DNA of 46,001 bases from a virus. Shown here in pieces: positions 8,863 through 22,289 of this stretch. The translations under genes and the position numbers were made by a program. The DNA lies in UHGV virus genome UHGV-0199506; one strand, given 5' to 3'. The notes under the pieces were generated by a model. The model had not been told where the DNA came from and did not search any database. It saw only the letters and a list, made by a program, of their open reading frames with translations. Position 1 is the first letter of the stretch, and each line of letters starts with the position of its first letter.

Positions 8863-8866
8863 CAGA

Positions 8867-8892
8867 GGCCCCGCCAGGGGCCTTTTCTTTTT
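8867..8892 (+). terminator. Rho-independent terminator after J (GGCCCC-GCCA-GGGGCC + TTTTCTTTTT)
   Basis: Hairpin plus T-run 5 nt after the J stop codon. Confidence 0.7.
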
Positions 8893-8923
8893 CCAGGGAA
8901 AACCATCCAGGAGCAACTTTATT

Positions 8924-10420: not shown

Positions 10421-10552
10421 TTGAGAGAAAATAGGTTATCAAAACTCGGATAATTTATCATGTAATCAGCATGTTAGAATTAACATAAAAATGGTTCTAG
10501 ACAAGTGTTCAGAAACATATTTTTTCAAAAAATCAAAGGATTAAGAGTAATG

Positions 10553-10726
10553 CAGAGAACTACTGCTGCGCCACATGCAGTGGTTCGAAGCCGCAGACCT
10601 GATTGTCAAAGGCATGGAAGGCGCTATCGCTGCCAAGACCGTGACCTATGACTTCGAACGTCTGATGGAAGGCGCTAAACTGCTGAAATGTAGCGAGTTT
10701 GGCGACGCGATTATCGCGAACATGTA
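10553..10726 (+). pseudogene. icd: 3' fragment of icd (isocitrate dehydrogenase), last ~57 codons; attachment-site remnant / replacement segment of an icd-integrating prophage
   Basis: Translation [56 protein letters not shown] matches the E. coli Icd C-terminus (..[56 protein letters not shown]). Homology begins abruptly at ~10553, with a stop codon in frame just upstream. e14-family phages are known to integrate in the icd 3' end and carry a substitute 3' end. Confidence 0.8.
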
Positions 10727-10751
10727 ATCTGGCCCCCAGATTATGTCAGAA

Positions 10752-10778
10752 CGGGAACCTGGTGGTTCCCGTTTTTAT
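10752..10778 (+). terminator. icd rho-independent terminator (CGGGAACC-TGGT-GGTTCCCG + TTTTT)
   Basis: Perfect 8-bp stem plus T-run 25 nt after the icd stop. Confidence 0.75.
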
Positions 10779-10796
10779 TATTAGTTTTCGAACGGT

Positions 10797-10830
10797 TATC
10801 AAAATTTTATCAAAACAAGTTATCAAAACC
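10797..10830 (+). repeat. Three direct repeats of GTTATCAAAA, candidate integrase arm-type binding sites (P' arm) adjacent to the int 3' end. A related copy GGTTATCAAAACTCGG lies at 10434-10449 on the other side of the core
   Basis: gttatcaaaattt / ttatcaaaacaa / gttatcaaaaccc read directly. The position, between the att core and int, is typical of lambda-family arm sites. Confidence 0.45.
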
Positions 10831-10844
10831 CCTCCCAAAAAACC

Positions 10845-11972
10845 TCATAAGGCCACCGTTGTCCACCCCTTCCCACGATCATCATGGTACCTATCCGTTT
10901 GTTGTTGAGTTTTATGTCCAAGTAAATCTTTCGTGTTTATACCCTGGGCTTTATATAACCGCTCGGAAAGCGATCTTTGTTCATGGAAAGTTGCCGGTGT
11001 ACCTTGTCCCCAGTCAATATCTGCACTGTCTCTTGCCTTGCTGAAATTCATGGTCAGTGTTCTGGGTTTCACCTGTGCTCCTCGCTCAGCCTGTGAGGTG
11101 GTTCTAAAGAAATGAACCAAATAAGGGCTTACTGCATAATCCCGGCAACGACTGATTACATCTCGGAGGCTCCAGTTGATTGCGTTGCAACGCAGAGCTA
11201 ATGGTATAGCGATTTTGCTTCCGGTTTTCTCTTGCTCAACGTGTAGATGATCGTCCCAGATGTCCGAGAATTTCATACGGGATATATCACCTAGTCGCTG
11301 TCCTGTTACTATGGCTAAAAGCATGGCGTTCCCCATGTATTTGTGATTTTCATCGGCTATATCAAAAATCTTTTGCCATTCCTCAAGAGTGAGGCGCTGG
11401 CGAGTGATCTTTCTACGAGGTTGTTTAGTTGCTAGTGCAGGGTTATAACCAGGAGGTACTTCTCCCGCATGCTGAGCTTCTTTAAAAACATCTATTAGGA
11501 CAGAGCGAATGACCTGAGCCATTCTGGGTTGTCCCTCCGCTAAATATTCATCAAGAATTTGCGCAACATCTCGAACATTGACAGCGGATATTAATTTCAT
11601 TCCTACCCGTTCCTTAAGCAGAGATACTGGTTTTGCTTTTTGTTTGATAGTGTTTTCTTTAATATCTCCGGACTTCAATCTTTCCTGCTGAATCTTCCAG
11701 TAACGTTCAAGCCAGGTGTTAGTTGATATTGATTTTCCTGAGCTGGTGGAAATTCTGTCAGTGATTGCCATTATCTGGCGGGTTTGTTGTTCCGCCAGTC
11801 TTTTATTTGCTTCAATAGCTATTGCCGTGGCCTCTGCTTCGTCTGTTCCTAGACTATGAAACTTACCAGTTATCGGGTGCTTATAACGCCAGTATACTTT
11901 ATTAACCTTTCTGCTGAAGAGCGGGTATAAATTTGGAATAGATATATTATTTTTACGTGGTCTGGCAGCCAT
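10845..11972 (-). CDS. int: Tyrosine integrase, lambda Int / e14 IntE family
   Basis: 375 aa. The C-terminal catalytic region ...FHEQRSLSERLYKAQGINTKDLLGHKTQQQTDRYHDDRG... matches the lambda Int R..HxxR..Y signature region. The N-terminal part is an arm-binding-type domain. It sits next to the icd fragment. Confidence 0.9.
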   Translation of the reverse strand: MAARPRKNNISIPNLYPLFSRKVNKVYWRYKHPITGKFHSLGTDEAEATAIAIEANKRLAEQQTRQIMAITDRISTSSGKSISTNTWLERYWKIQQERLKSGDIKENTIKQKAKPVSLLKERVGMKLISAVNVRDVAQILDEYLAEGQPRMAQVIRSVLIDVFKEAQHAGEVPPGYNPALATKQPRRKITRQRLTLEEWQKIFDIADENHKYMGNAMLLAIVTGQRLGDISRMKFSDIWDDHLHVEQEKTGSKIAIPLALRCNAINWSLRDVISRCRDYAVSPYLVHFFRTTSQAERGAQVKPRTLTMNFSKARDSADIDWGQGTPATFHEQRSLSERLYKAQGINTKDLLGHKTQQQTDRYHDDRGKGWTTVAL

Positions 11973-12222
11973 CGTTCAAAATCCTCTGCAAAAGAACAGG
12001 GTCGCTTTTCTTTACTACAGGAGTGGTCAATGTACCGACCAACTCAGCATCCTCCCTGACGCGCCAGAATCGACCTTCTTTTTTGGCTGGGGGAGAAAAC
12101 ATATTCTGTTTAGCATAATTCCTGAGAGTGGAAACACTTGGAGGATTGCTTCTGTATTTCTCGTTTGCCCACTCTTCAAGGGTTAACATCTGGAGCATAT
12201 GTTTTACCTCATCATGGCCCAT
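11953..12222 (-). CDS. xis: Excisionase / AlpA-like small DNA-binding protein
   Basis: 89-aa ORF immediately upstream of int and overlapping it by 20 nt. It has a 'LTLEEWANEKYRSNPPSVSTLRNYAKQN' helix-turn-helix-like motif typical of Xis/Vis proteins. The true start may be an internal Met. Confidence 0.55.
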   Translation of the reverse strand: MGHDEVKHMLQMLTLEEWANEKYRSNPPSVSTLRNYAKQNMFSPPAKKEGRFWRVREDAELVGTLTTPVVKKSDPVLLQRILNDGCQTT

Positions 12223-12250: not shown

Positions 12251-14389
12251 TCAGTTTTGCATCAATTTTTGCAGCACCTGATTGCCGGCAATTATTCGCT
12301 GCCAGATCGCTGATACATAGCGGGCCTGATGAATAGCATCAGCGAGGGCATTGTGACGAGACCCTTCAAACGGGATCGTTGTTTTGGGGTCGAAGCTAAT
12401 GGCTTGGCCGAGCTCTACCATTGTTCGTACGTCCCGATCGTTCCAGTATTCCCACGGATAATCTTCAGCAATGCAATCGTAAGAAGAACGCAGAATAGAG
12501 TTGTCGAATGACGCACCGTTACCCCATACCTGCGCCTTTTTGCTCCCACCAGCAACATTATCAGAAACAAATTCTCTGAACTGGAGTAATGCATCCTGCA
12601 ACGGGATAGCATCATCATTTACGATCGCAGAGCGTGCTTCGGAGGACTGTCTAAGCCACCAGATAACAGTAGATGGATCGATTACGGCGCCCCAGTTCAC
12701 GGAGGATTCAAGGCATACGACTTTATAGAAACTTTCTCCAATAGAGCCGGTTGCCGGGTCAAAAACAACCGCACCAATAGCGACGATAGGGGCGTTATGT
12801 TTTTTACCCATGGTTTCCAGATCAACCATAACGTGAACATAATCAATTGGCTGATCTTCCTCCTTATTATGAAGACCGGATTCAATATCTACAGAATCCG
12901 TTTGATGAACAACTTCATCTGTTTTTTCTTTTTGGTTAACCTTGCCCGTAACGTCAACAAGACCTTCAATGGAAAATACTCCGTCCCCAATTTTTGAAAC
13001 TTCAGGCTGCCTGGTCTTGGTAAGGTCTTCGGTTACCCACTTCGGATCCGTAGGGTCGCTAACCCCTTCAACATATTCGCCGCGCTCGGCGGCCAGAACC
13101 TGATTAGCGTCCGGACGTTGCTTTTGAGCCTCTTTTACCAGTTCGGCACCAACTGCTTTAATGTCGGAGGAGAGTGTTTCCAGTTTTGCGCTGCTATCCT
13201 CTCCGGCGATTACTTGGTTTGTTGCATCCAGAGTGACTGCAGCAGATGGAATATGTCCCGCCTTGGTAAGCGTCTCAGCGCTCGGGGTATCATGCTTATG
13301 TTCAGTCAGATTCGCGTTGATGTAGCCACGCAACCGATCTGGAAAAGGAGTTATTCCACTGGATGCTTCCCTGATCAGTGCAAAAATCGCTGCACGGGAA
13401 TAATCAAGGATGCCTGGTGTGCTCCGTAATGCTGCAGACCATTCTTTAAATGGACTTTCTTTCTTCTGTACTATTTCCTTCGCGCGGCGGTGGACTGATG
13501 CCGGAAAATTATAGATGTCAAAATCCATAGGCATCGTTGCAAGAGCGATCTCTATATCCAGAGTATCCAGCGAATGCTGATAATCCGGATTGCGGTCAGT
13601 TTTGTTACCGCCGCCAGCATTGGCGCCGGCATCGGTTTTGTTTATTGAGGTGATATAGTTTCCAGCAGCCCATTCCTTTGTAAGGATCCCGCGGTCAATG
13701 TGCGACGTTTCAAGCCACAATTTGGCGAACTGAATTTGCTTGCCGAGCTCATGGCGTTTCCCCACAGGAAATACGCTCTTAAATGCACTGGTAAATTTCC
13801 ACAGGCCAGGCATATCATATTTTTTAAGCTCCGGAATATTTTCTGCCGTCAGCAGCAGATTCTGCACACCGTGATTATCCGTATCCATTTCCATCGCTGA
13901 AAGGCGGTTACGATGAGGAATGCTAATGTGATACACGTGACGCTCGTCGGCCATATACTGGGCAAGCAGCTGCGTGCGGAATGACATTTCCGCCAGGTTG
14001 AAGAGTGCTTCTTCATTGTTCGAATAGTCCTCTTCATCGCTATTTGCAGGAGAGATATCGTTTTCTGGTTTACTGGAGGGCTGTGGTTCAGCAGCCGCTG
14101 GCGCAACGATTTTTTGCCATGTCAGCCCGTCTTCACCACCAAGCTCGTAGCGATCGCACCAGGTGTCATCCAGTACACCTTCTTCCGGTAAGTCATCAAC
14201 GATGAGCCAGTTGGTGCGGATCGGCAGCTGATGGCTGGCGCCGCGGCCAACGTTAATTTCAGCGTCTTCCAGGATGTCCAGGATTTTGCGCTCGGCGCGA
14301 GAATCGGATTTAGCAGAGAACCAGCAGAAGAGACTTTTCGCTTCGTTTGCTTTTGCCTTCGCTTTAATGAGATACGGGTAGTTGTTCAT
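12251..14389 (-). CDS. RecE (exodeoxyribonuclease VIII)-like N-terminal region fused to a DnaQ-like DEDDh 3'-5' exonuclease domain
   Basis: N-terminal segments (IVDDLPEEGVLDDTWCDRYEL; DRGILTKEWAAGNYITSINKTDAGANAGGGNKTDR) resemble what I recall of the RecE N-terminal region. The C-terminal 190 aa carries Exo I (MVDLETMG), Exo II (WGNGASFDNSIL) and Exo III (HNALADA) motifs of the DEDDh superfamily. Confidence 0.6.
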   Translation of the reverse strand: MNNYPYLIKAKAKANEAKSLFCWFSAKSDSRAERKILDILEDAEINVGRGASHQLPIRTNWLIVDDLPEEGVLDDTWCDRYELGGEDGLTWQKIVAPAAAEPQPSSKPENDISPANSDEEDYSNNEEALFNLAEMSFRTQLLAQYMADERHVYHISIPHRNRLSAMEMDTDNHGVQNLLLTAENIPELKKYDMPGLWKFTSAFKSVFPVGKRHELGKQIQFAKLWLETSHIDRGILTKEWAAGNYITSINKTDAGANAGGGNKTDRNPDYQHSLDTLDIEIALATMPMDFDIYNFPASVHRRAKEIVQKKESPFKEWSAALRSTPGILDYSRAAIFALIREASSGITPFPDRLRGYINANLTEHKHDTPSAETLTKAGHIPSAAVTLDATNQVIAGEDSSAKLETLSSDIKAVGAELVKEAQKQRPDANQVLAAERGEYVEGVSDPTDPKWVTEDLTKTRQPEVSKIGDGVFSIEGLVDVTGKVNQKEKTDEVVHQTDSVDIESGLHNKEEDQPIDYVHVMVDLETMGKKHNAPIVAIGAVVFDPATGSIGESFYKVVCLESSVNWGAVIDPSTVIWWLRQSSEARSAIVNDDAIPLQDALLQFREFVSDNVAGGSKKAQVWGNGASFDNSILRSSYDCIAEDYPWEYWNDRDVRTMVELGQAISFDPKTTIPFEGSRHNALADAIHQARYVSAIWQRIIAGNQVLQKLMQN

Positions 14390-14530
14390 TGCGTTTGGGC
14401 TCCTTTGGATTGTAAGATACCCGGCAGCTGATGGCAGCCGCCCTGGTGGTGGTCATTGGTCAAAACTCGATTCCGGAAAGCTTTGGTCGGCTGACCGGGT
14501 ACTTAACCCGCCTTGCGCGGGTTTTGTGCT

Positions 14531-14902
14531 TTATGGGGCTGGCGAATCGCCCCGCAGCAGCTGTGATACGCGAACGTCGTCAAGCGCTCGCAGGATAGGC
14601 TCAAAAGTTTTATGGGCTGGCAGTTTAGATACCGCAGTGATCACTTCTGTAACGGTGATGTCATCGCCGCGGGGGCTATAACCACCACCTGGGCCACGCT
14701 GTGAAATTACCAGGTTACCCGCCCGCAGCTTTTTGAAGATCTGCTCAAGGTATGAAGTAGACAGCTTTGACTCTTTACTGATGGCCGTCAGTGAAACGGG
14801 CGAGCCGTCATAGAGCTTATTCAAAGTGGCGGCGGCCTGGACAGATGCCAGAACGCGTTTCATTCCAAATTCCATAATCACTTCTCCGGCCGTAACGGCC
14901 AT
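14531..14902 (-). CDS. Rrf2-family transcriptional regulator (winged HTH), cysteine-free
   Basis: 'SLTAISKESKLSTSYLEQIFKKLRAGNLVISQRGPGGGY' matches the IscR/NsrR/CymR family HTH and the GPGGGY wing. The protein has no Cys, so it has no Fe-S ligands. The likely start is at MEFGMKRV (14875), which has a GGAGAAG RBS. The first ATG lies inside a repeated motif. Confidence 0.7.
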   Translation of the reverse strand: MAVTAGEVIMEFGMKRVLASVQAAATLNKLYDGSPVSLTAISKESKLSTSYLEQIFKKLRAGNLVISQRGPGGGYSPRGDDITVTEVITAVSKLPAHKTFEPILRALDDVRVSQLLRGDSPAP

Positions 14903-14917
14903 TGGTCAAAACTCGAT

Positions 14918-15112
14918 TCAAAAACTCACTGCAGGCTGTTGGTCGTCAGCCATGTTTTGTGCATTTCGGTAGGGGAGGCACTGGCCCTGTACTTTTTGTT
15001 CATCGGCGTTGCTGTTGCAACTGGCCTCTGATGGATAAACACCGATCAGAACATCAGAGCATTCACCAGTGAGAGCACAAACGCTGATGACAAGGGCAAA
15101 CAGGGTATTCAT
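14918..15112 (-). CDS. Small secreted Cys-rich hypothetical protein (64 aa, predicted Sec signal peptide, 4 Cys)
   Basis: MNTLFALVISVCALTG|EC.. has a hydrophobic N-terminus. It is translationally coupled (ATGA overlap) to an upstream 40-aa ORF in the same leftward operon as Rrf2, exo, xis and int. Confidence 0.4.
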   Translation of the reverse strand: MNTLFALVISVCALTGECSDVLIGVYPSEASCNSNADEQKVQGQCLPYRNAQNMADDQQPAVSF

Positions 15113-15231
15113 GCCTCAGCCTCAGGGTTTCCTTTCTGCGCCAGCAAGTAACACAGCTGGCGTAGTCTCACCTCGAACCAGTTCAGGCGGGTCGCCTGGT
15201 TCCCGGTAGGTACTCGGGCAAAATCCTTCAT
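15109..15231 (-). CDS. Possible 40-aa micro-ORF (MKDFARVPTGNQATRLNWFEVRLRQLCYLLAQKGNPEAEA)
   Basis: A GGAGA RBS lies 6 nt upstream. Its stop overlaps the start of the downstream secreted-peptide gene (ATGA). It is not in the ORF track because it is under 60 aa. Confidence 0.25.
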   Translation of the reverse strand: MKDFARVPTGNQATRLNWFEVRLRQLCYLLAQKGNPEAEA

Positions 15232-15502
15232 AGTTATCTCCAGTTAACTCAGTATTAGAATGTGGTTTTGCAATGCGGCGCCGGGTGCCTCCCGGTGACG
15301 GCAGCCAGTTAACAACTACCGCCGACAACTTTTTCCCCACAACGTGTGAATAACCGCCATGTTTACTTTTTTAACTGTGTCGCGTGCGCATAGCCGCATT
15401 CACCGCATTGCAAACCCTACTAGTCGTCATGCCTGTCTTTTCACCACTTCAGGCTCGGTGGTATTCTTGGCGCTCTCACACAGCCAAATAAAAGAGAGCA
15501 AA

Positions 15503-15817
15503 ATGTCTCGTAGCCCTATACCTGTCTTCTGGTACGAAAATCCCGCTCACTATGAAGAATTCCAAAAAATCCTTTCAGATGCTTACGTCCTTCCCTTTGA
15601 CTACCACGACTGGCGTATCCGCACCGATAGCATGGTGGAGCGCTACGAAAACAGCGGTATCCAGGCTGTGAAGGTGGTAGCCAGCACTTACGATTTCATC
15701 ACCTGGTGCCAGGCCCATGGACGTGATATCAGTACCAAAAGCTGCAATGATTACGCGGTCTCCGAATCGGGCCTCCAAATCCTGCGCGACAGAGAGTTTG
15801 ATTGGGGAGACGAGTAA
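15503..15817 (+). CDS. Hypothetical protein (104 aa), probably starting at MSRSPIPVFWYENPAHYEEF..
   Basis: The ORF-track extension upstream of 15503 lacks an RBS. The internal Met has an AGAGAG RBS. No recognisable family. Confidence 0.45.
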   Translation: MSRSPIPVFWYENPAHYEEFQKILSDAYVLPFDYHDWRIRTDSMVERYENSGIQAVKVVASTYDFITWCQAHGRDISTKSCNDYAVSESGLQILRDREFDWGDE

Positions 15818-16037
15818 AAAGTAAATTTTCCCTATCTTGGATATATCTATTCTCATAGTGATGTCCTATCTCATGCCTGTAACGCCGGCCGGCGGAACGT
15901 TATAACCTGCTGCGATTGATATTGCTGTCATCTCATCCGGTGTTTCGTATGCCGCCGGCAGCTACTTCGTGGGCTTCCTGCCTCGATGACTCATTGCATT
16001 TCGTGTTTATAGTAAAACCCATTTTGTGTTTGATTGT

Positions 16038-16054
16038 CAACACGGTGTGTGTTG
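16038..16054. promoter_or_regulatory. Operator-like inverted repeat CAACACGGTGTGTGTTG, distal copy beyond the repressor terminator
   Basis: Near-palindrome (CAACAC..GTGTTG) read directly. It is related to the site at 16597-16615. Confidence 0.4.
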
Positions 16055-16093
16055 AAAGTTGGGGTGGGGGTTTGTGATGAGTTCAAAGTGAGG

Positions 16094-16134
16094 GAAAAAA
16101 ATTACAAAAAAAAACCAGCACATAGTGCTGGTTT
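16094..16134 (-). terminator. Rho-independent terminator of the repressor gene (CCAGCAC-ATA-GTGCTGG with a long T-run on the minus strand). Bidirectional-looking
   Basis: aaaaaaaaaCCAGCACataGTGCTGGttt read directly. It lies 25 nt after the stop of the 16159..16539 gene. Confidence 0.75.
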
Positions 16135-16158
16135 ATGCATTCGCTAAACGTATAGAGG

Positions 16159-16539
16159 TTATTCGTCTGCTTTTTTAAAACGGCCTCTCAGATATTTCTC
16201 GACATACTCATCGATTTCTTTAAGTCGTAGTTGAAAGGTATCAATCATCCGCTCTTGTTCAGACTCTGGAAGCTGGTCAAAAAGTGAAATCAATTTTCTG
16301 TGCTTAGGAGTGAGCCAAGACTCAGCGTTATCCTCACCAAAAATGAGCTCTGACGGGCTGATGCCTAAGGCTTTCGAGATGGTTATAGCATCATCAACGC
16401 CTATGTTCCGACGCCCAGCCTCATAATTTCCGATACGTGACTGTACCCACCCGCATAATTCCGCGAGTTTGGCTTGAGACATGCCTTTCTTCTCGCGTGT
16501 CTCTTTCAGTCTGGAAGCAATAGTCATGTTTATGTTCAT
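16159..16539 (-). CDS. Prophage immunity repressor, XRE-family HTH without a peptidase (S24) domain
   Basis: 126 aa. HTH 'MSQAKLAELCGWVQSRIGNYEAGRRNIGVDDAITISKALGISPSEL'. It is transcribed divergently from a Cro-like gene across a 105-bp operator region. The C-terminal half has no Ala-Gly/Ser-Lys LexA-type cleavage motifs. Confidence 0.8.
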   Translation of the reverse strand: MNINMTIASRLKETREKKGMSQAKLAELCGWVQSRIGNYEAGRRNIGVDDAITISKALGISPSELIFGEDNAESWLTPKHRKLISLFDQLPESEQERMIDTFQLRLKEIDEYVEKYLRGRFKKADE

Positions 16540-16596
16540 CAGATATTTTTACCACGCTACGTGTTATTCATCAAAGTACGTTTCGTCTTGACTCCT

Positions 16597-16615
16597 AAAC
16601 ACGATGTGTGTTTAA
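16597..16615. promoter_or_regulatory. Operator-like inverted repeat AAACACGATGTGTGTTTAA in the repressor/cro intergenic region, overlapping a TTGACT -35 element at 16587-16592
   Basis: Palindromic half-sites AAACAC/GTGTTT. The site lies between the divergent repressor and cro starts. Confidence 0.5.
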
Positions 16616-16644
16616 CTTAATTAAACATCAGACGTGAGGATAGA

Positions 16645-16857
16645 ATGAACAACATCGCCAAAGAACGACAAGCTCTTGGATTAACTCAGGCGCAACTCGC
16701 TAGCTTGTTTGGCTGGCGCCAGTCCCGTATATCGAATTATGAAAACGGAACACGTAACCCGGGATTGACTGAGTGCAGGCTTATTGTTGAGAAACTGAAT
16801 GAATTAGGTCGGACTTGCACCATTGATTCTGTTTTTCCTCCATTAGGCCGGGGTTAA
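16645..16857 (+). CDS. Cro-like HTH regulator (70 aa)
   Basis: HTH 'LGLTQAQLASLFGWRQSRISNYENG'. It has a GAGGA RBS and is divergent from the repressor. Confidence 0.7.
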   Translation: MNNIAKERQALGLTQAQLASLFGWRQSRISNYENGTRNPGLTECRLIVEKLNELGRTCTIDSVFPPLGRG

Positions 16858-16859
16858 CC

Positions 16860-17414
16860 ATGCAGTCAGTCACTTATCAACATCATAACCAGAATCTGCC
16901 TGGATCGCTGAAAACTCAAAATCAGTATTCACCGCAGCGTCGTGACCGCTTGAAGTGCAGAACGATATACACCGCGGTTCGGGAGTGGGAGTCCACTTTA
17001 CCTGGGCGAGCTCAGGAGCTTGTCGCGCAGCTGGTGGCCGAACAGTGGGAAAAACAAAACGGTCGCGGAATAAGCGTTAACAAACAGAATCTGTACCGAT
17101 ACCTGAAAAACGAGGGCGGCTCGGAGAAATACACCCGCTATGTCATACAGCTTTCGACAGCGATCGTTGATGCAATGCCTATTGAGATTGCGCGCAAACA
17201 TGGCCTAAAACGTGGCTTAACTGAAACCGAGCTGGTGGCCAATGCAATCAAAGAGTGTAGCGAAGCACACCAGGCCAAGTTACTTGGCGCACCTCTGCAG
17301 AAACTAGAGCGTGAAATACGGGAAGCTGCAATTGCACTTTTTAACATGCTCCCTGCAGATGCGGCGGGACCACTACTGGCGAGCATCAGCGCCGTAGCGC
17401 CGCAGTTTTTCTAA
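16860..17414 (+). CDS. Phage regulatory protein, CII/YdaT-like (184 aa)
   Basis: Sits at the cII position, immediately after cro with a 3-nt gap. It has a helical, basic C-terminal half. The family assignment is from memory of Rac YdaT-like proteins and is not certain. Confidence 0.45.
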   Translation: MQSVTYQHHNQNLPGSLKTQNQYSPQRRDRLKCRTIYTAVREWESTLPGRAQELVAQLVAEQWEKQNGRGISVNKQNLYRYLKNEGGSEKYTRYVIQLSTAIVDAMPIEIARKHGLKRGLTETELVANAIKECSEAHQAKLLGAPLQKLEREIREAAIALFNMLPADAAGPLLASISAVAPQFF

Positions 17415-17465
17415 TCGAGTTTTGACAATGACCACCAGCACCAGCTGGTTAATAAGAGGTTTCAG

Positions 17466-18449
17466 ATGGCCCGCATCAGAACAGTTAAACCTGAATTCTG
17501 GACAGATGAGAAGGTGGTGGAATGTTCAATTCCAGCGCGTCTCCTGTTTATCGGGTTGTTCAACTTCGCCAACGATATGGGATGCCTTGAGCGTTCGCCA
17601 AAACGGTTGAAGATGCAAATCTTCCCTGCGGACGCGCTCGATTGCGAACCACTAATACAGGAACTGATTACTCATGGATTACTCATTGAGTATTCAGTGA
17701 ATGATGTCTGCTATTTACAGATTAAAGGTTTCCTTAAGCATCAAAAAATAAACAGGCCTTCGGCCTCAAAAATACCTCTTCCGCCAGAATTCACTGAGTC
17801 TAAGGCAGGAAAGGAAGAAAAGAGAGCTCCTAATCAAGGAGGGCTCAGTGAGGACTCAGTGAATCCTCATGGAGGACTCACTGACGGAAAAGGAAGGGAA
17901 GGGAAGGGAAAAGGATCAAACCCCACTCTCTATGCGCAGGAGAGAAATTTTCCCCAGCAACCTCAGTATCTACCTGGAGTGGATATTCCGATCGGAAAAT
18001 TCACCATGCACGACCTTTGGCTGCCGTCACAGGACTGGCCGCGACTGGCTGCTACCTGGGGTATAGCGCTTCCCGAACCGGCATACCTGCCGACAGAGCT
18101 GGCAGAGTTCATCGCGTACTGGAAATCCGAGGGGAAAGTGTTCACTCAGATTCAGTGGGAGCAGAAATTTGCCCGCAGCGTGATAAGTGCCAGAGCCAAA
18201 TCTAAACCACAACCAGCAACCGGAGGTAAAGGCCATGCAGGAATTCAACCAGCTAACACCGCATCCCGGGCAGTTCAGGAAATTCAGGCAGCCAGAGAGC
18301 GCTGGGAAAAGCAAAACGGACTTGCTGGCGGCGGATACGGCTTGGCGGCTATGGACGGTAATGGGGGAGATATTCTCGAACCGGTGGACCCAGAAGAACG
18401 GGGCGGCGCCCTCGGATATGTGGATTGCCCAGATTGGATCGATGAGTGA
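17466..18449 (+). CDS. Replication initiation protein, O-like / DUF1376 (YdaU-like)
   Basis: The N-terminus MARIRTVKPEFW.. is the conserved start of the DUF1376 family found at the O position of Rac-like prophages. It has an AAGAGG RBS. Its 3' 215 nt overlap the P-like gene in another frame. Confidence 0.6.
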   Translation: MARIRTVKPEFWTDEKVVECSIPARLLFIGLFNFANDMGCLERSPKRLKMQIFPADALDCEPLIQELITHGLLIEYSVNDVCYLQIKGFLKHQKINRPSASKIPLPPEFTESKAGKEEKRAPNQGGLSEDSVNPHGGLTDGKGREGKGKGSNPTLYAQERNFPQQPQYLPGVDIPIGKFTMHDLWLPSQDWPRLAATWGIALPEPAYLPTELAEFIAYWKSEGKVFTQIQWEQKFARSVISARAKSKPQPATGGKGHAGIQPANTASRAVQEIQAARERWEKQNGLAGGGYGLAAMDGNGGDILEPVDPEERGGALGYVDCPDWIDE

Positions 18450-18906
18450 TGCCCAGATTATGCTGGTCTGCAGGCAGTGTATGGAGCGCTGTGCGGCGGG
18501 AAACACATGGCCGCCGGATCTTGCTGAGTTCGTTGCGCTGGTGTCAGCCAGCGGTGCTAATCCATTCAATCTGACATCCGATGCAGTGATGGCGGAGTAC
18601 AAACGCTGGAGAAACGAATCTTATCGATACTCGGGCAGCGACAAATACCCATGGAAACAGGATGTTCTGTATCACATTTGCATTGAGATGCGCAGAACTG
18701 GAGTTGAGAGGAACCTGACGGAGGGAGAGCTGAAAAAACTGGCAGAAAACTTACTCACGAAATGGACCAAACGCCTGGCTAACGGGTTTTCGATTCCCCC
18801 GATTCGTCGGCAGTTGGCAGCACCGAGGCATCCAGCAGGGCCGACGCCAGCGCAGGTTCTGATGGAAGAGTACAAACGCCGCAAGGCGGCAGGTTTAACC
18901 AAGTAA
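18235..18906 (+). CDS. Replication protein P-like (DnaB helicase loader), 223 aa from MQEFNQ
   Basis: Collinear similarity to lambda P: WPPDLAEFVALV ~ PSPGQFVAWC; YSGSDKYPWKQDVLYHICIEM ~ YPDAESYPWKSNAHYWLVTNL; LTEGELKKLAENLLTKWTKRLANGFSIPP ~ LTDAELRRKAADELVHMTARINRGEAIPEP. A strong GGAGGT RBS lies 8 nt before the ATG at 18235. The ORF-track start at 18187 has no RBS. Confidence 0.75.
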   Translation: MQEFNQLTPHPGQFRKFRQPESAGKSKTDLLAADTAWRLWTVMGEIFSNRWTQKNGAAPSDMWIAQIGSMSDAQIMLVCRQCMERCAAGNTWPPDLAEFVALVSASGANPFNLTSDAVMAEYKRWRNESYRYSGSDKYPWKQDVLYHICIEMRRTGVERNLTEGELKKLAENLLTKWTKRLANGFSIPPIRRQLAAPRHPAGPTPAQVLMEEYKRRKAAGLTK

Positions 18907-18913
18907 ACGAGTT

Positions 18914-19360
18914 TTGACCATGGCCAAACAATCAAAAACCAAAGTAACCAAAGCACAGATGGTGCTTGCCATCGTTAGCCGGACGCCAGAATGCGTTCTG
19001 CAGGATGTCTGCGATGCGCTCGACTTGCAAGCCAGTACAGCAGGTAACTTGCTGCGGCAGCTACATGCCGCGGGAAAACTCCATCGTACCCATAACGGCT
19101 ACCAGTACGTCTATCGAGTGGTTGCAGGCGTTGAGGTTCCCGATGTTGCCTTGCCGCAGACTGCAACACCATTATCTGAAGAGGATGTGAAACAAGTCCA
19201 GGACGCACTGTCCCTGGCGAAGACGCTGGAAGACAAAAAGCTGTGGCGCCGGGCTGCGACTGTTTACACATCGACGCTTGGGATGGCTTCAACAGCAAAC
19301 GAACTCTGGTTGCTTGCCAAAATGCGTAACCGCTGCCTGCGCAATGCGACGAGGTGCTGA
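18914..19360 (+). CDS. Winged-helix protein with C-terminal ANR (AraC-negative-regulator)-like motif
   Basis: The C-terminus 'KKLWRRAATVYTSTLGMASTANELWLLAKMRNRCLRNA' fits the W..AA...W..A..RC pattern of ANR-family small regulators, which are common in enterobacterial prophages. A TTG/ATG start lies inside a repeated motif. Confidence 0.45.
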   Translation: MTMAKQSKTKVTKAQMVLAIVSRTPECVLQDVCDALDLQASTAGNLLRQLHAAGKLHRTHNGYQYVYRVVAGVEVPDVALPQTATPLSEEDVKQVQDALSLAKTLEDKKLWRRAATVYTSTLGMASTANELWLLAKMRNRCLRNATRC

Positions 19361-19847: not shown

Positions 19848-20369
19848 ATGACTATTCTAGAAGAGGTCCAAAACGAAGCCTGGTTTGCTCTGGTATCTAT
19901 CTACACACATCAGGAGTTAATGGGGACTCTGGCATCCAGCCCAACGAGATATGAAATGGGCAATCAGCTTATCGCGCTAAATGCGATAGTTGAATTATTA
20001 ATTCTGCGTATTGCTCGTTTGGCAGATAGTACCAAGAAAGTACGTAATGCTAAGATGCTGTTGGAGAAAGGTACATATCCCGGTACATATGCCGACGTTA
20101 AATTAGCAGCAGAGCGGTTTATGTCATTTGCAGCCCCTATCGTCAAGATTAGACATGAAGAGGTTGCGCACATGAAGCCCGGCATTGTGAGCACCTATGG
20201 ACCTCGAATTATACCTACAGAAGCTTTGAGGGCTACTGAGTCCCTTATAGAACTCATTGATGTCGCCTACGATCAACAGCAGTCTTACTCATACAGAGTA
20301 GGCTCCTGCGAACCTGAAGTTGATTTAAGAGCATCTGTGGTGGCAGGTAAAAGAGTGTTCGTAAAATAA
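19848..20369 (+). CDS. Hypothetical protein (173 aa) in the low-GC island; contains a single Rx5H (RHEEVAH) motif
   Basis: No recognisable family. The ORF is ~38% GC against ~55% for the phage backbone. The HEPN-type motif is short and could arise by chance. Confidence 0.4.
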   Translation: MTILEEVQNEAWFALVSIYTHQELMGTLASSPTRYEMGNQLIALNAIVELLILRIARLADSTKKVRNAKMLLEKGTYPGTYADVKLAAERFMSFAAPIVKIRHEEVAHMKPGIVSTYGPRIIPTEALRATESLIELIDVAYDQQQSYSYRVGSCEPEVDLRASVVAGKRVFVK

Positions 20370-20399
20370 ATTAGTTAAACTCAAGTTCATGAGGGAAAC

Positions 20400-21209
20400 A
20401 TGATTAAACAAACAGATGTCGATTTTCTATACGGAACATTTAAAGATTTTATAGTTGAAGACAAGCAAAACCTTTTAAAGAATTTTAGCGAAAGATTTCA
20501 GCTAGCGGTTGCAATGGAAGTCTCCTTTACTAATAGTAAGTCTGAACTTTACAATCGAGTTCATGCGAAGACCATCAAGTTATCGGAGCTGTGGTACTGC
20601 TTTGAATTGCTTTCTACTGCTACGGAATATGGGTTTGGTAATGCAAAGGAAAAATCAGAAGAACAAATCAATAAGGAATGGCTGGATACGCTGAGAGTTT
20701 CTGCGATAGGCAAGATTGAACCCGAAAAGCCTAGAAAGAAAAATCTATTTGTTAATGTAGACTTAACTTACAACCCAGTCGGAAAGGCAAGACTGATCAA
20801 TGAAGAACACTTTACAGGACGGTGGTTCTTATCTTCATACCAAGATGTTTTGTGGGCATTTTCGATAACTAGAAGCATTCCCGACACGCTCCCAGATGAT
20901 GTGGCAAAGGACGCATTATCTCACTACCTAAAGATTCTAATATCGCATGCTCAAGGTGAGCAAGAACAGTTCCTAAATCGTGGTTATAATGCACTGATGG
21001 GTAATAGTGCGGATATGCCAAAATCCTCCAATATACTATCATTTATTTATGCTTTGAGGTGTAGCTATGTTCATCAAGGTGAATTACCAGACAGTTCGCA
21101 TATGCCAATCGAGTACAAAGAATTTATTTTAGATGAATGCATTAAGTTCCTAATAAGTTATTGCTCTTTGGCTTATTCTACAGTTATAGATGAGATCTAT
21201 TTTCATTAA
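20400..21209 (+). CDS. Hypothetical protein (269 aa), low-GC island, probably co-transcribed with 19848..20369
   Basis: It starts 31 nt after the upstream stop and has a GAGGGAAAC RBS. The C-terminal RCSYVH is an Rx4H motif. No recognisable family. Confidence 0.4.
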   Translation: MIKQTDVDFLYGTFKDFIVEDKQNLLKNFSERFQLAVAMEVSFTNSKSELYNRVHAKTIKLSELWYCFELLSTATEYGFGNAKEKSEEQINKEWLDTLRVSAIGKIEPEKPRKKNLFVNVDLTYNPVGKARLINEEHFTGRWFLSSYQDVLWAFSITRSIPDTLPDDVAKDALSHYLKILISHAQGEQEQFLNRGYNALMGNSADMPKSSNILSFIYALRCSYVHQGELPDSSHMPIEYKEFILDECIKFLISYCSLAYSTVIDEIYFH

Positions 21210-21361
21210 CCAGACATTTTGGTCCGGTTTCTGGAGATATAATAATTTTATGCAAACATAGTAGATGCAACAGTTGAGTTCAGCTGTTATTGTAAGCACC
21301 CCTTAAAAACAGTGCATACTCTTTTAGAGATCTACCCGTCTCTCTTTACACAGAGGCAAAA

Positions 21362-21427
21362 GTCCGCTTCTCGCTCATAGCGGACCAGAGGACCAGTGGG
21401 TAGGTTCGCTTCGTGCCAAAAGCAGAC
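21362..21427 (+). repeat. Two-hairpin repeat element, copy A (HP1 GTCCGC-TTCTCGCTCATA-GCGGAC; HP2 loop GTGCCAA)
   Basis: Read directly. The first hairpin has perfect 6-bp arms and a conserved 12-nt loop. It is related to copies at 22381 and 24246. Confidence 0.6.
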
Positions 21428-21560
21428 ATTTGATAAGTCTTTGTTACTTATAAGGGTACAAGCCAACTGATATGATAGACTGTTTAATAGCTAGTGTGTT
21501 AACAAGTCAAAAAATGTAGAATTTAATTCCTAGCCACTTCTGAATACATATGGATGCTGT

Positions 21561-22289
21561 ATGAGTAACCCATTCACTCTTGAAATACTTCAGGCTATCA
21601 ACGATTGGCAGCGCAGTACGACTAAAAATCGTGGTAAAAAATTAGAGACTCTATGTGTAAATCTTCCCGCTCAATACAAAACTGTTGATTTTGCCTGCTA
21701 CAGGAAAATAAATTTGCAGAAGGATGGTGTATTTAGCATGTTCGCCCACTATCGTCTCCCGGAAAGAAGTTCCTCATGGTCTTCTTCAGTCGACGTCGTC
21801 AAAAATTTTAAACACGGTGTATCGTTAAATATCGTCGAACAATCTTTTATCTATCAAACTATTCCAACTCCAAATGAAATCATTCTTAATCTTATAGCAG
21901 TCTACAATTCTTCTGATTTTCAAAGTGCTCTTAGCCTACATAGAAAGGATATTGATAATGTTCATCTAGGTATTGATAAATATGGTAATAGCCAACTTGA
22001 AGTGGTCTTAAAAAAGGATTTTGTTACACACAATGACATATACATGCTGGGTGGTCGTTCAAGCGCTTTCTGTGTTTCTCACTCTCCAGTCATCCAAAAG
22101 ATGTCATTAAGTTACTTGGATTACGATATCAGAAAAAATAAAGTTATCACTTTCAAATGGTTAAGCCATGAAATAACACGACGAATCATTGATAGGATTC
22201 TCAGGAAGTACCCTCAACCTTTCAATGCTTATGGGAAGAGCTACGGATATATCATCCCTAAGAAAAGAAAGAAGAAATCTAGAAGGTGA
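21561..22289 (+). CDS. Hypothetical protein (242 aa) with a basic C-terminal tail (KKRKKKSRR), low-GC island
   Basis: Stand-alone ORF flanked on both sides by copies of the two-hairpin repeat. Confidence 0.4.
   Translation: MSNPFTLEILQAINDWQRSTTKNRGKKLETLCVNLPAQYKTVDFACYRKINLQKDGVFSMFAHYRLPERSSSWSSSVDVVKNFKHGVSLNIVEQSFIYQTIPTPNEIILNLIAVYNSSDFQSALSLHRKDIDNVHLGIDKYGNSQLEVVLKKDFVTHNDIYMLGGRSSAFCVSHSPVIQKMSLSYLDYDIRKNKVITFKWLSHEITRRIIDRILRKYPQPFNAYGKSYGYIIPKKRKKKSRR

What the first reader, a model, noticed from the sequence alone, without database searches (positions are those of the whole stretch)
14447..18925. Four copies of a ~24-bp TCAAAACTCG-containing motif as two inverted pairs at gene starts in the early region
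Copies: GGTGGTCATTGGTCAAAACTCGATTCC (14447-14470, minus-sense), GGCCATTGGTCAAAACTCGATTCA (14897-14920, minus-sense), and the reverse complements TAATCGAGTTTTGACAATGACCACC (17413-17437) and AACGAGTTTTGACCATGGCC (18906-18925). Copies 1 and 3 form a near-identical inverted pair, as do copies 2 and 4. Each sits at or just upstream of a start codon: the exonuclease leader, Rrf2, the O-like gene and the ANR-like gene. The ATG lies inside the motif. The arrangement is symmetric about the immunity region. A 10-mer, TCAAAACTCG, is shared with the putative Int arm site at 10437. Possible roles are binding sites for a phage regulator (the Rrf2 protein is a candidate), conserved translation-initiation/antisense elements, or recombination sites flanking an invertible or exchangeable immunity module.
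Basis: seen in the sequence. Interest (0 to 1): 0.55.

Follow-up and report, generated by a model that had tools for sequence, protein, structure and literature searches.

The report
Phage antisense RNA and its targets
The four repeats are real and most likely mark a small antisense RNA gene in a Klebsiella prophage plus three matching sites in its early messenger RNAs, so that one RNA could throttle replication, recombination and regulator genes on both sides of the immunity region.

Summary
TCAAAACTCG occurs 5 times against 0.11 expected, and four occurrences belong to a ~23-nt asymmetric motif, AATCGAGTTTTGAC(C)(A)ATG(A/G)CCA. Each copy is oriented with local transcription and lies at an intercistronic junction: DUF1482|Rrf2, Rrf2|exonuclease leader, YdaT(CII-like)|O and P|wHTH. 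The fifth 10-mer (10439) belongs to a different repeat, TTATCAAAAC, at the att/int region.

The motif is conserved in hundreds of Klebsiella, Enterobacter, Citrobacter and Kluyvera prophages, always in a "--++" arrangement. No inversion was seen, no cassette moves between arms, and Rrf2 is dispensable.

Read on the opposite strand, the exonuclease-leader copy looks like an sRNA gene. It has an invariant -10 (GTAnnnT), an antisense-facing intrinsic terminator, and a hairpin whose wobble pairs form only in the antisense RNA. Its unpaired stretch is complementary to the 5' half of the motif.

All copies change together in independent lineages. Aeromonas phages carry GGAGCATAAACCAATG at the same junctions, and one Klebsiella-type lineage has the same two deletions in all four copies.

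Best reading (confidence ~0.55): a cis-encoded antisense RNA that also acts in trans on a shared initiation-like sequence. Expression is untested. I found no Rfam family or paper describing it. I class it as a new variant of phage antisense control (OOP, C4, P4 CI).

The parts
14389..14418 (+). Candidate promoter of the antisense RNA. The -35 is TTGCGT (14389-14394), which overlaps the exonuclease start codon on the other strand. An 18-nt spacer follows, then the -10 TAAGAT (14413-14418) preceded by TG.
   Evidence: In 21 diverse leaders, including the distant L236, the invariant columns are exactly G-T-A-n-n-n-T. The three middle bases vary: TAAGAT, TAGAAT, TACAAT, TAGACT. Aeromonas leaders keep TTGTGT, 18 nt, then TA(C/G)AAT. 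The consensus scan did not call it, because it scores 7 of 12. It is inferred, not shown.
14425..14532 (+). Predicted ~108-nt antisense small RNA, antisense to the exonuclease leader. It has a variable 5' part, a seed, hairpin A' and a terminator.
   Evidence: Covariance model R1 scores 148.9 bits at 14410-14536(+). It finds one strong hit per related locus, always on the strand opposite the leftward operon. The fold has an unpaired stretch, CAAAACUCGAUU. No Rfam family reaches threshold. The ends of the RNA are inferred.
14450..14472 (-). Motif copy 1, AATCGAGTTTTGACCAATGACCA, in the exonuclease leader mRNA. On the + strand the same bases form the seed of the predicted RNA.
   Evidence: The motif is unpaired in the consensus fold of the leader.
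14473..14498 (+). Hairpin A' with the invariant loop CUUUGGUCG.
   Evidence: On the antisense strand, 83.3% of cells pair and the covariation score is 0.245. U.G wobbles occur in L006 (x2), L081, L213, L215 and L236, and a closing U.G in 21 of 21 sequences. On the sense strand the figures are 71.0% and 0.162, and the same cells are C.A or A.C mismatches.
14505..14532 (+). Intrinsic terminator that points against the leftward operon: AACCCGCCTTGCGCGGGTT followed by TTGTGCTTT.
   Evidence: Called on the + strand by the terminator scan. The A-run 5' of the hairpin in the sense orientation, which is the U-tract in the antisense orientation, is invariant. In the sense orientation no U-tract follows the hairpin.
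14897..14920 (-). Motif copy 2, at the DUF1482 stop codon (TGA, 14920-14918), upstream of Rrf2.
   Evidence: The position is conserved in relatives.
17412..17434 (+). Motif copy 3. It starts at the YdaT/CII-like stop codon (TAA, 17412-17414), upstream of the replication gene O. Complementarity to the predicted RNA runs to 17440.
   Evidence: (I13, I14). Sampling by YdaT homology, without using the motif, finds the motif after the stop codon in every junction variant.
18904..18926 (+). Motif copy 4. It starts at the P-like stop codon (TAA, 18904-18906). Its ATG (18920-18922) is the start codon of the wHTH/PerC-like gene.

Best explanation
Shown by sequence comparison: the four repeats are one functional system that acts on early transcripts. 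Inferred: how that system works, as follows.

The copy in the ~135-nt exonuclease leader lies inside a small RNA gene read from the opposite (+) strand.
- The gene has a weak sigma-70 promoter whose -35 overlaps the exonuclease start codon.
- The transcript is about 105-110 nt.
- It contains an unpaired seed (…GGUCAUUGGUCAAAACUCGAUU…), a conserved hairpin and a Rho-independent terminator.

This RNA is fully complementary to the exonuclease leader, its cis target. Through ~20-25 nt it is also complementary to the same motif at three junctions:
- the DUF1482|Rrf2 junction in the leftward early mRNA;
- the YdaT|O junction in the rightward early mRNA;
- the P|wHTH junction in the rightward early mRNA.

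The motif is a shared initiation-like sequence: SD-like GAG or GGAG, a 9-nt spacer, then AUG. It sits directly after the previous stop codon.

By analogy with phage P1 C4, lambda OOP and P22 sar RNAs, pairing would lower expression of the modules behind each junction. It could do so by blocking ribosome loading or re-initiation, or by creating an RNase III substrate. The affected modules are recombination/excision, replication and the wHTH regulator. The direction of the effect (repression) and the time of action (lysogen or establishment) are inferred only.
For: 1. Every motif copy is co-oriented with transcription. The strand order is divergent in every multi-copy locus (most often '--++'), and 582 instances show no arm crossing.
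2. The motif is an island of conservation between variable modules. Orthologous copies keep class-specific variants, so each site is under its own purifying selection.
3. sRNA-gene signals lie on the antisense strand of the leader. They are the invariant GTAnnnT, an antisense-facing terminator with a conserved U-tract, and hairpin A', whose wobble pairs form only in the antisense RNA (versus 79).
4. All copies evolve in concert.
   - Aeromonas-lineage phages carry CGGAGCATAAACCAATG(A/G)C at the exonuclease leader, a second left-arm site, the cII stop and the DnaC stop. There it is the annotated initiation region of gp24 and gp27.
   - L128 has the same deletions of one T and one C in all four copies.
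5. Seed-to-target duplexes are stronger within a genome than between genomes: -40.2 versus -36.3 kcal/mol, better in 89% of comparisons, 0 of 300 permutations as good.
6. The type of junction motif and the type of leader always go together: 94 K-type (plus 3 that my pattern missed) and 12 of 12 A-type.
7. Chris1, an isolated phage, has only the leader copy and one target.
8. Distant relatives carry an OOP/M3-type antisense RNA at the very cII|O junction where this family has the motif.
9. Lineages with the leader element but no extra copies exist, which suggests a cis-only ancestor.
Against: - No expression data exist. The promoter is weak by consensus (7 of 12) and the scan did not call it.
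- The variable hairpin 5' of the seed has G.U pairs that favour folding in the sense mRNA. The conserved GGGUAUCUU could also act in the sense leader as an anti-SD element.
- Some lineages carry a single seed-to-target mismatch (GAAC against GACC in L006, L019 and L103), and the window's copies 3 and 4 would each form a 1-nt bulge.
- The within-genome test does not control for phylogeny.
- The predicted MFE fold sequesters the 3' half of the seed.
- In L264 and L265 the terminator lacks a U-tract.
- Concerted change would also fit a sequence-specific protein whose specificity drifted, or gene conversion.
Confidence: 0.55

Rival explanations
1. The motif is a shared operator for a sequence-specific protein. 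This could be a RegA-like translational repressor that binds the RNA around the AUG. It could also be a monomeric DNA-binding protein that blocks elongation, like the stoperators of mycobacteriophage L5. The antisense-strand signals in the leader would then be unrelated, or cis-acting only.
For: - The site is asymmetric, its orientation is tied to transcription, and it overlaps stop and start codons in short intergenic gaps. My recollection is that L5 stoperators are distributed the same way.
- Concerted change at all sites would follow a change in protein specificity.
- YdaT, the exonuclease-like protein and (where the locus extends that far) a wHTH gene after copy 4 recur across the divergent motif phages compared.
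Against: - No phage protein tracks the motif. Rrf2 is optional. The repressor varies from 20% to 84% identity, and its operators look like CAACAC-N5-GTGTTG. P is replaced by DnaC-type loaders. The wHTH families differ.
- YdaT homologues bind an ATGATT-N6-AATCAA inverted repeat (PMC11879457).
- The Aeromonas phage has equally similar repressor, Cro and YdaT proteins but a different motif.
- Indels of 1-2 nt between GAC and ATG are tolerated.
- This model does not explain the antisense -10, the terminator or the wobble asymmetry.
Confidence: 0.2
2. The motif is a recombination 'linker'. Short conserved boundary sequences let homologous recombination swap modules between related phages, and their identity is maintained by recombination or gene conversion rather than by a regulatory role.
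For: - Sequence downstream of each copy is highly variable, with alternative replication modules, an Rrf2 slot that may be other genes or empty, and extra cassettes in L080 each bounded by a copy.
- Alleles of YdaT and of O are reassorted across the junction.
Against: - Orthologous copies keep class-specific variants instead of being homogenised within a genome.
- Cassettes never move between slots or arms.
- A neutral 23-bp linker would not stay nearly invariant while the flanking genes drop to 44-60% identity.
- Strict orientation and placement at stop codons are not required for recombination.
- It leaves the leader's sRNA-like features unexplained.
Confidence: 0.1
3. The motif is a nut- or put-like signal. 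It would be an RNA or non-template-strand element in both early operons that modifies RNA polymerase or recruits Nus factors, so that transcription reads through terminators into the delayed-early genes.
For: - It is symmetric about the immunity region and oriented with transcription.
- The minimal set in Chris1 is one copy per arm.
- Copies 2 and 3 lie where the immediate-early units end.
- The resemblance to boxA is loose (8 of 13 positions by my own alignment).
Against: - No N-like gene is present.
- No conserved boxB-type hairpin follows the motif. Downstream structure is enriched only in the exonuclease leader.
- No intrinsic terminators lie downstream in the operon direction.
- Most phages have two or more copies per arm.
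- The GCUC core of boxA is absent.
Confidence: 0.07
4. The motif copies are sigma-70 promoters (TTGACC/TTGACA as the -35), or operators of the Rrf2 regulator.
For: Every copy contains a consensus-like TTGAC. Rrf2 lies between copies 1 and 2 in this window.
Against: - A -10 at 16-18 bp is no more frequent than at random positions: 2.5% against 5.0% scoring at least 4 of 6.
- The motif has no dyad symmetry.
- Rrf2 is absent from many phages that carry the motif.
Confidence: 0.03

Closest known systems
Phage P1/P7 C4 antisense RNA (immI region: c4-icd-ant)
   Same: A small phage RNA pairs through short complementary stretches with repeated target sequences in an early or immunity operon. It covers the initiation region of a small upstream ORF, so downstream genes are silenced by coupling or polarity. 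Seed and targets must co-vary, which in P1 and P7 defines immunity specificity. These statements come from my knowledge and from the review PMC12197685.
   Different: C4 is processed from the same transcript that carries its targets, so it is encoded in the sense orientation. Here the RNA would be read from its own promoter, antisense to one target, and would act on both divergent early operons. There is no sequence or Rfam similarity.
Lambda OOP RNA / phi80 M3 RNA
   Same: A short terminator-ended antisense RNA in the early region of a lambdoid phage, acting on a lysis-lysogeny or replication junction. In phi80-type relatives of this phage's CII/YdaT, the M3/OOP-like gene occupies the cII|O junction, where this family has motif copy 3.
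   Different: OOP is purely cis-antisense to the cII 3' end and has no known repeated trans targets. Its location and sequence differ, because this candidate lies in the exonuclease leader.
Satellite phage P4 CI RNA (seqB against seqA/seqC)
   Same: One small RNA acts on two or more copies of a short complementary sequence in the early leader transcript, giving RNA-based immunity. This is from my knowledge.
   Different: P4 CI is cut from the leader transcript itself and causes premature termination. Its targets are in one operon only.
Stoperators of cluster A mycobacteriophages (L5 gp71)
   Same: Short asymmetric sites in small intergenic gaps on both arms, oriented with transcription, often overlapping start or stop codons.
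   Different: Stoperators are DNA sites for the immunity repressor, number 20-30 and are spread over the whole genome. Here there are 2-6 copies in the early region only, they are unlike the repressor's operators, and there is evidence for an RNA partner.

Membership tests
Base-pairing phage antisense/small RNA regulator (general class) | Own promoter and Rho-independent terminator bounding a ~50-300-nt non-coding transcript | tested here: inconclusive
   The terminator is called on the + strand. The -10 pattern GTAnnnT is invariant in 21 leaders. The -35 is weak and the scan did not call the promoter. No transcript data exist.
Base-pairing phage antisense/small RNA regulator (general class) | RNA secondary structure conserved through compensatory changes on the transcribed strand | tested here: met
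   Hairpin A' on the antisense strand: 83.3% of cells paired, 6 pairs with changes on both sides, covariation score 0.245, 0 of 500 shuffles as high, and strand-specific U.G pairs. On the sense strand: 71.0% and 0.162.
Base-pairing phage antisense/small RNA regulator (general class) | Accessible seed complementary to the target mRNAs, with seed-target co-variation | tested here: met
   Duplexes of 20-25 bp form with copies 2-4. Part of the seed is unpaired in the predicted fold. Concerted variants occur in the Aeromonas lineage and in L128. Within-genome duplexes beat between-genome ones.
Base-pairing phage antisense/small RNA regulator (general class) | Demonstrated expression and a regulatory effect on targets | not testable with these tools
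   Needs RNA-seq or Northern blotting and reporter assays.
Lambda OOP / phi80 M3 RNA | Transcribed from pO at the cII-O boundary, antisense to the cII 3' end | tested here: not met
   The cII|O gap here is 51 nt. It holds the sense-oriented motif and has no antisense terminator. The candidate gene is ~3 kb away, in the exonuclease leader.
Lambda nut site (boxA + boxB with N protein) | A boxB hairpin at fixed distance from boxA, and an N-family antiterminator gene | tested here: not met
   No structure is enriched downstream of the motif outside the leader. No N-like protein appears in the Pfam or PHROG scans.
Rrf2-family operator | Co-occurrence with an Rrf2 regulator, and a dyad-symmetric site | tested here: not met
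   The motif persists without Rrf2 (L081, L006, L080). The motif is asymmetric.
Rfam families (any) | Score at or above the gathering threshold | tested here: not met
   There are no gathering-level hits in the window. The best scores over the candidate are isrB 16.3 bits and isrK 15.3 bits, E-values 0.2-0.5.
Invertible or cassette-type recombination system (inverted repeats as crossover sites) | Polymorphism in orientation, or cassettes found at more than one site | tested here: not met
   None of 582 instances joins genes of opposite arms. No cassette protein family is shared between arms.

The most novel reading that the evidence does not exclude
A widespread family of Enterobacterales and Aeromonas prophages would run an RNA-based second layer of immunity. 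One antisense RNA, templated by the exonuclease leader, holds down replication, recombination/excision and a regulator gene on both early operons. It does so by pairing with a 'copy-pasted' initiation sequence at every module junction. Because seed and targets co-evolve (K-type, A-type, L128-type), the seed would define RNA-level specificity groups. These would decide whether co-resident or superinfecting relatives cross-silence each other. That would be a lambdoid counterpart of P1/P7 C4 heteroimmunity, and a built-in constraint on which modules can be exchanged.
Probability: 0.3. Interest if true: 0.78.

Novelty: new variant of a known kind. Interest (0 to 1): 0.62.

Why it matters
If the RNA exists, it gives a testable post-transcriptional circuit for a common but unstudied group of Klebsiella, Enterobacter and Citrobacter prophages.
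- It would explain why module junctions in these mosaic genomes carry an invariant sequence: any incoming module must keep the target.
- It would add a trans-acting, two-operon antisense regulator to lambdoid biology, where OOP, anti-Q and sar RNAs are all cis-acting.
- It would offer a handle, through seed swaps, for controlling prophage induction or cross-immunity in clinical Klebsiella.

Even if the RNA model fails, the concerted evolution of 4-6 dispersed 23-nt sites shows a coupled regulatory system that is not yet described.

Tried and rejected
- Sigma-70 promoter (TTGAC as the -35): a -10 at 16-18 bp is no more frequent than at random positions.
- General boxA-boxB (nut-like) design: downstream hairpins are enriched only in the exonuclease leader (z = -1.78). 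At the other junctions z = -0.29, against -0.13 for random windows.
- Obligatory uORF: about 11% of distinct contexts lack the ATG, some have ATG-GCC-TGA, and the ATG frame is no more open than another frame in the leader.
- Separate trans antisense partner elsewhere in the early region: only the complements of the copies themselves pair strongly.
- Integron-like cassette mobility or an invertible immunity region: rejected.
- Rrf2, the repressor, Cro, YdaT or P as a dedicated binding protein: none tracks the motif.
- Literal sequence search of the literature: no relevant paper. A review of phage sRNAs lists nothing at this position.
- Rfam: nothing at threshold.
- E. coli: the leader occurs in only 2 of 5426 complete genomes. 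Among deposited phages only Kp4865-4 and Chris1 carry it. Among plasmid records it occurs in only four 50-70 kb Klebsiella records.
- Two of my scripts gave nothing usable. One was meant to tabulate copy variants per genome. The other was a first association test confounded by orientation (replaced).

Full report
**1. Observation**

The 10-mer TCAAAACTCG occurs five times in the 46-kb window, against 0.11 expected. Reading the sequence and the repeat finder (D5, D6, I2, I8, I9, I13, I14) show that four occurrences belong to one ~23-nt asymmetric motif, AATCGAGTTTTGAC(C)(A)ATG(A/G)CCA. The copies lie at 14450-14472(-), 14897-14920(-), 17412-17434(+) and 18904-18926(+).

The fifth occurrence (10439) sits in GGTTATCAAAACTCGG. 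It belongs to a different repeat, TTATCAAAAC, found at 10436, 10796, 10807 and 10820. These flank an icd 3' fragment next to the integrase gene, and look like att or arm-type sites.

**2. Context**

The window holds a lambdoid prophage integrated at icd. It is 96% identical to Klebsiella phage Kp4865-4 and about 75% identical to Citrobacter phage Chris1. Pfam and PHROG scans give this early region:

| Gene | Coordinates |
|---|---|
| int | 10845-11972(-) |
| xis | 11953-12222(-) |
| ExoVIII-like | 12251-14389(-) |
| Rrf2 | 14531-14902(-) |
| DUF1482 | 14918-15112(-) |
| Xre-type repressor, with its own terminator | 16159-16539(-) |
| cro | 16645-16857(+) |
| YdaT/CII-like | 16860-17414(+) |
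| O | 17466-18449(+) |
| P-like | 18442-18906(+) |
| wHTH/PerC-like | 18920-19360(+) |

The motif copies therefore mark four junctions: DUF1482|Rrf2, Rrf2|exonuclease leader, YdaT|O and P|wHTH.
- Each copy is in the sense of the local operon.
- Each of copies 2-4 begins at the stop codon of the upstream gene.
- The internal ATG is a working start codon only for the wHTH gene. In relatives, wHTH genes of different families all start there.

**3. Distribution**

- A 19-mer scan of one genome per species found the motif in Klebsiella, Enterobacter, Citrobacter, Kluyvera, Phytobacter, Leclercia, Pluralibacter, Buttiauxella, Dryocola, Scandinavium and Pectobacterium.
- It is nearly absent from E. 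coli, where 2 of 5426 genomes carry it.
- Among deposited phages only Kp4865-4 and Chris1 carry it.
- Sampling by YdaT homology, without using the motif, shows the motif directly after the YdaT stop codon in every junction variant, while the sequence behind it changes completely.
- Across roughly 230 loci the strand order is always divergent, most often '--++'.
- Information content falls off sharply outside (T)AAT-CGAGTTTTGACCAATG(A/G)CC.

**4. What the motif is not**

- Not a sigma-70 promoter: there is no -10 at 16-18 bp.
- Not an Rrf2 operator: L081 and L006 keep both flanking copies with no Rrf2, and the motif has no dyad symmetry.
- Not recombination sites for an invertible or hopping module. 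None of 582 instances joins left-arm genes to right-arm genes. No cassette protein family is shared between arms.
- Not a general boxA-boxB design: structure downstream of the motif is enriched only in the exonuclease leader.
- Not an obligatory uORF.
- No phage protein tracks the motif. Published YdaT homologues bind an unrelated inverted repeat (PMC11879457).
- No Rfam family matches.

**5. The exonuclease leader read backwards**

Copy 1 lies in a ~135-nt non-coding leader that is more conserved than the genes around it. Three features make sense only on the opposite (+) strand.

(a) Terminator. The hairpin AACCCGCCTTGCGCGGGTT is followed by TTGTGCTTT, and the scan calls it as an intrinsic terminator on the + strand. 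In the operon sense, an invariant A-run precedes the hairpin and no U-tract follows it.

(b) Promoter element. About 105 nt upstream on the + strand, the invariant columns of 21 diverse leaders spell G-T-A-n-n-n-T with variable middle bases: TAAGAT, TAGAAT, TACAAT, TAGACT. That is the signature of a -10 hexamer. A TTGCGT or TTGTGT lies 18 nt further upstream and overlaps the exonuclease start codon.

(c) Hairpin strand asymmetry. The hairpin between seed and terminator (loop CUUUGGUCG) carries compensatory changes.
- In L006, L081, L213, L215 and L236 it has U.G or G.U pairs in the antisense RNA, where the sense RNA would have C.A or A.C mismatches.
- There is no case of the opposite pattern.
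- Formal counts are 83.3% of cells paired and score 0.245 on the antisense strand. On the sense strand they are 71.0% and 0.162.

The predicted transcript runs from about 14425 to 14532 and is 108 nt long. It folds with an unpaired CAAAACUCGAUU, which is the complement of the lineage-specific 5' half of the motif. A covariance model of this element finds one strong hit per related locus, always opposite to the leftward operon.

**6. Coupling of the copies**

The RNA would be complementary to all four motif copies, because each copy is in the sense of its mRNA. Three independent lines show that the copies evolve as a set.

- **Aeromonas lineage.** Phage pAEv1818 and its relatives have the same leader architecture: -35 TTGTGT, -10 TA(C/G)AAT, and the terminator GGCCCGCCTTGTGCGGGCC followed by TTTTT. 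Their motif differs. CGGAGCATAAACCAATG(A/G)C occurs at the exonuclease leader, a second left-arm site, directly after the cII stop and directly after the DnaC stop. At the last two sites it is the annotated initiation region of gp24 and gp27. Six of the eleven positions of the 5' half differ from the Klebsiella type at every copy. The 3' half, CCAATG, is kept.
- **L128.** Its YdaT is 85% identical to the window's. All four copies have lost the same T and the same C, giving GAGTTTGA(C/G)AATGA.
- **Within-genome pairing.** Seed-target duplexes are stronger within a genome than between genomes: -40.2 against -36.3 kcal/mol, better in 89% of comparisons, 0 of 300 permutations as good. Phylogeny is not controlled in this test.

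Junction type and leader type always match. Orthologous copies keep class-specific variants, for example AACGAG…GACCATG at the P|wHTH site. Simple homogenisation therefore does not explain the pattern.

Two kinds of relatives frame the history.
- L236, L264 and L265 have the leader element but no extra copies, which suggests a cis-only ancestor.
- Phi80-type relatives carry an OOP/M3-type antisense RNA at the cII|O junction instead.

**7. Mechanism proposed, and its status**

Shown:
- the repeats are real and oriented with transcription;
- they are under selection at each site;
- they co-evolve.

Supported by comparative evidence but not shown: the leader copy encodes an antisense RNA.

Inferred: the RNA pairs in cis with the exonuclease leader and in trans with the shared initiation-like sequence at the other junctions (SD-like GAG or GGAG, 9 nt, AUG, directly after the previous stop). 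Pairing would block ribosome loading or re-initiation, or create an RNase III substrate. That would lower expression of the recombination/excision, replication and wHTH modules. This could happen in the lysogen as a threshold against leaky early transcription, or during establishment of lysogeny.

Weak points:
- the promoter is weak;
- the variable 5' hairpin has G.U pairs that favour the sense strand;
- an alternative sense-strand role (anti-SD) is possible for GGGUAUCUU;
- some lineages carry single mismatches or bulges;
- there are no expression data.

**8. Comparison and novelty**

The closest known systems are the P1/P7 C4 RNA, the P4 CI RNA, and lambda OOP with phi80 M3.
- It works like C4 and CI, which are small RNAs acting on repeated complementary sites that cover an upstream initiation region.
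- It is not a member of any of them. It is encoded antisense with its own promoter, it acts on both divergent operons, and it shares neither their sequence nor any Rfam family.
- Mycobacteriophage stoperators resemble it in distribution only.

I found no description in the searchable literature. I therefore class it as a new variant of a known kind, with moderate to high interest. My confidence is about 0.55 in the sRNA mechanism. It is about 0.85 in the narrower claim that the copies form a coupled, transcript-level regulatory set rather than recombination or Rrf2 sites.

Noticed in passing
window 15267-15412 (-): Sub-threshold match to Rfam STnc100 (34.6 bits against a gathering score of 47; E = 6e-5). 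It lies in the leader ahead of a 40-aa ORF and DUF1482 at the start of the leftward operon, and may be a second structured RNA in the early-left region.
   Followed up: partly
window 10436-10833: A 3' fragment of icd (10575-10727) with its terminator is flanked by four TTATCAAAAC repeats (10436, 10796, 10807, 10820) next to int. These look like the attachment region with arm-type sites.
   Followed up: partly
window 46-10420 (+): A 2938-aa ORF (46-8862) and a 561-aa ORF (8735-10420) end just left of the att region. They may be the tail-fibre end of a second element lying in tandem at icd.
   Followed up: no
window 17658-17713 and 17831-17886: Two clusters of ~11-nt-spaced direct repeats (TACTCATTGAGT / GACTCAGTGA type) lie inside the O gene and are probably the origin iterons.
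   Followed up: no
window 16036-16052 and 16597-16613: Palindromes CAACAC-N5-GTGTTG and AAACAC-N5-GTGTTT lie on either side of the repressor gene and are likely operators at pL and pR. The 126-aa repressor has only an HTH_3 domain, with no peptidase domain, and has its own strong terminator (16112-16134, -).
   Followed up: partly
window 14440-14456 / 14678-14694: A 17-nt stretch of 88% complementarity links the sequence just 3' of motif copy 1 to a stretch inside the Rrf2 coding region. It could be chance or a long-range pairing.
   Followed up: no
L080 3826-10822 (IMGVR_UViG_2882464097_000002): This relative has five motif copies. The extra ones bound additional gene cassettes inserted between YdaT and the replication genes, so new modules seem to arrive with, or acquire, a motif copy.
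   Followed up: partly
L239 191-208 (-) (Aeromonas phage pAEv1818): The A-type motif (GGAGCATACCAATGACC) also forms the initiation region of the recT-like gene. The Aeromonas phage therefore has at least five copies.
   Followed up: partly
L237 6559-6618, L236 ~7920-7990, L238 ~6570-6640: Phi80, Klebsiella phage ST974-OXA48phi18.2 and Enterobacter phage ENT1 share a conserved OOP/M3-type antisense terminator (AAAAAGCCCTTGAAGCGGT.ACTTCAAAGGCCC) at the cII|O junction. They have no motif.
   Followed up: partly
window 19848-22289 (+): Three AT-rich ORFs (173, 269 and 242 aa) lie downstream of the wHTH gene. I ran no family or homology search on them. They could be moron or defence-type cargo.
   Followed up: no
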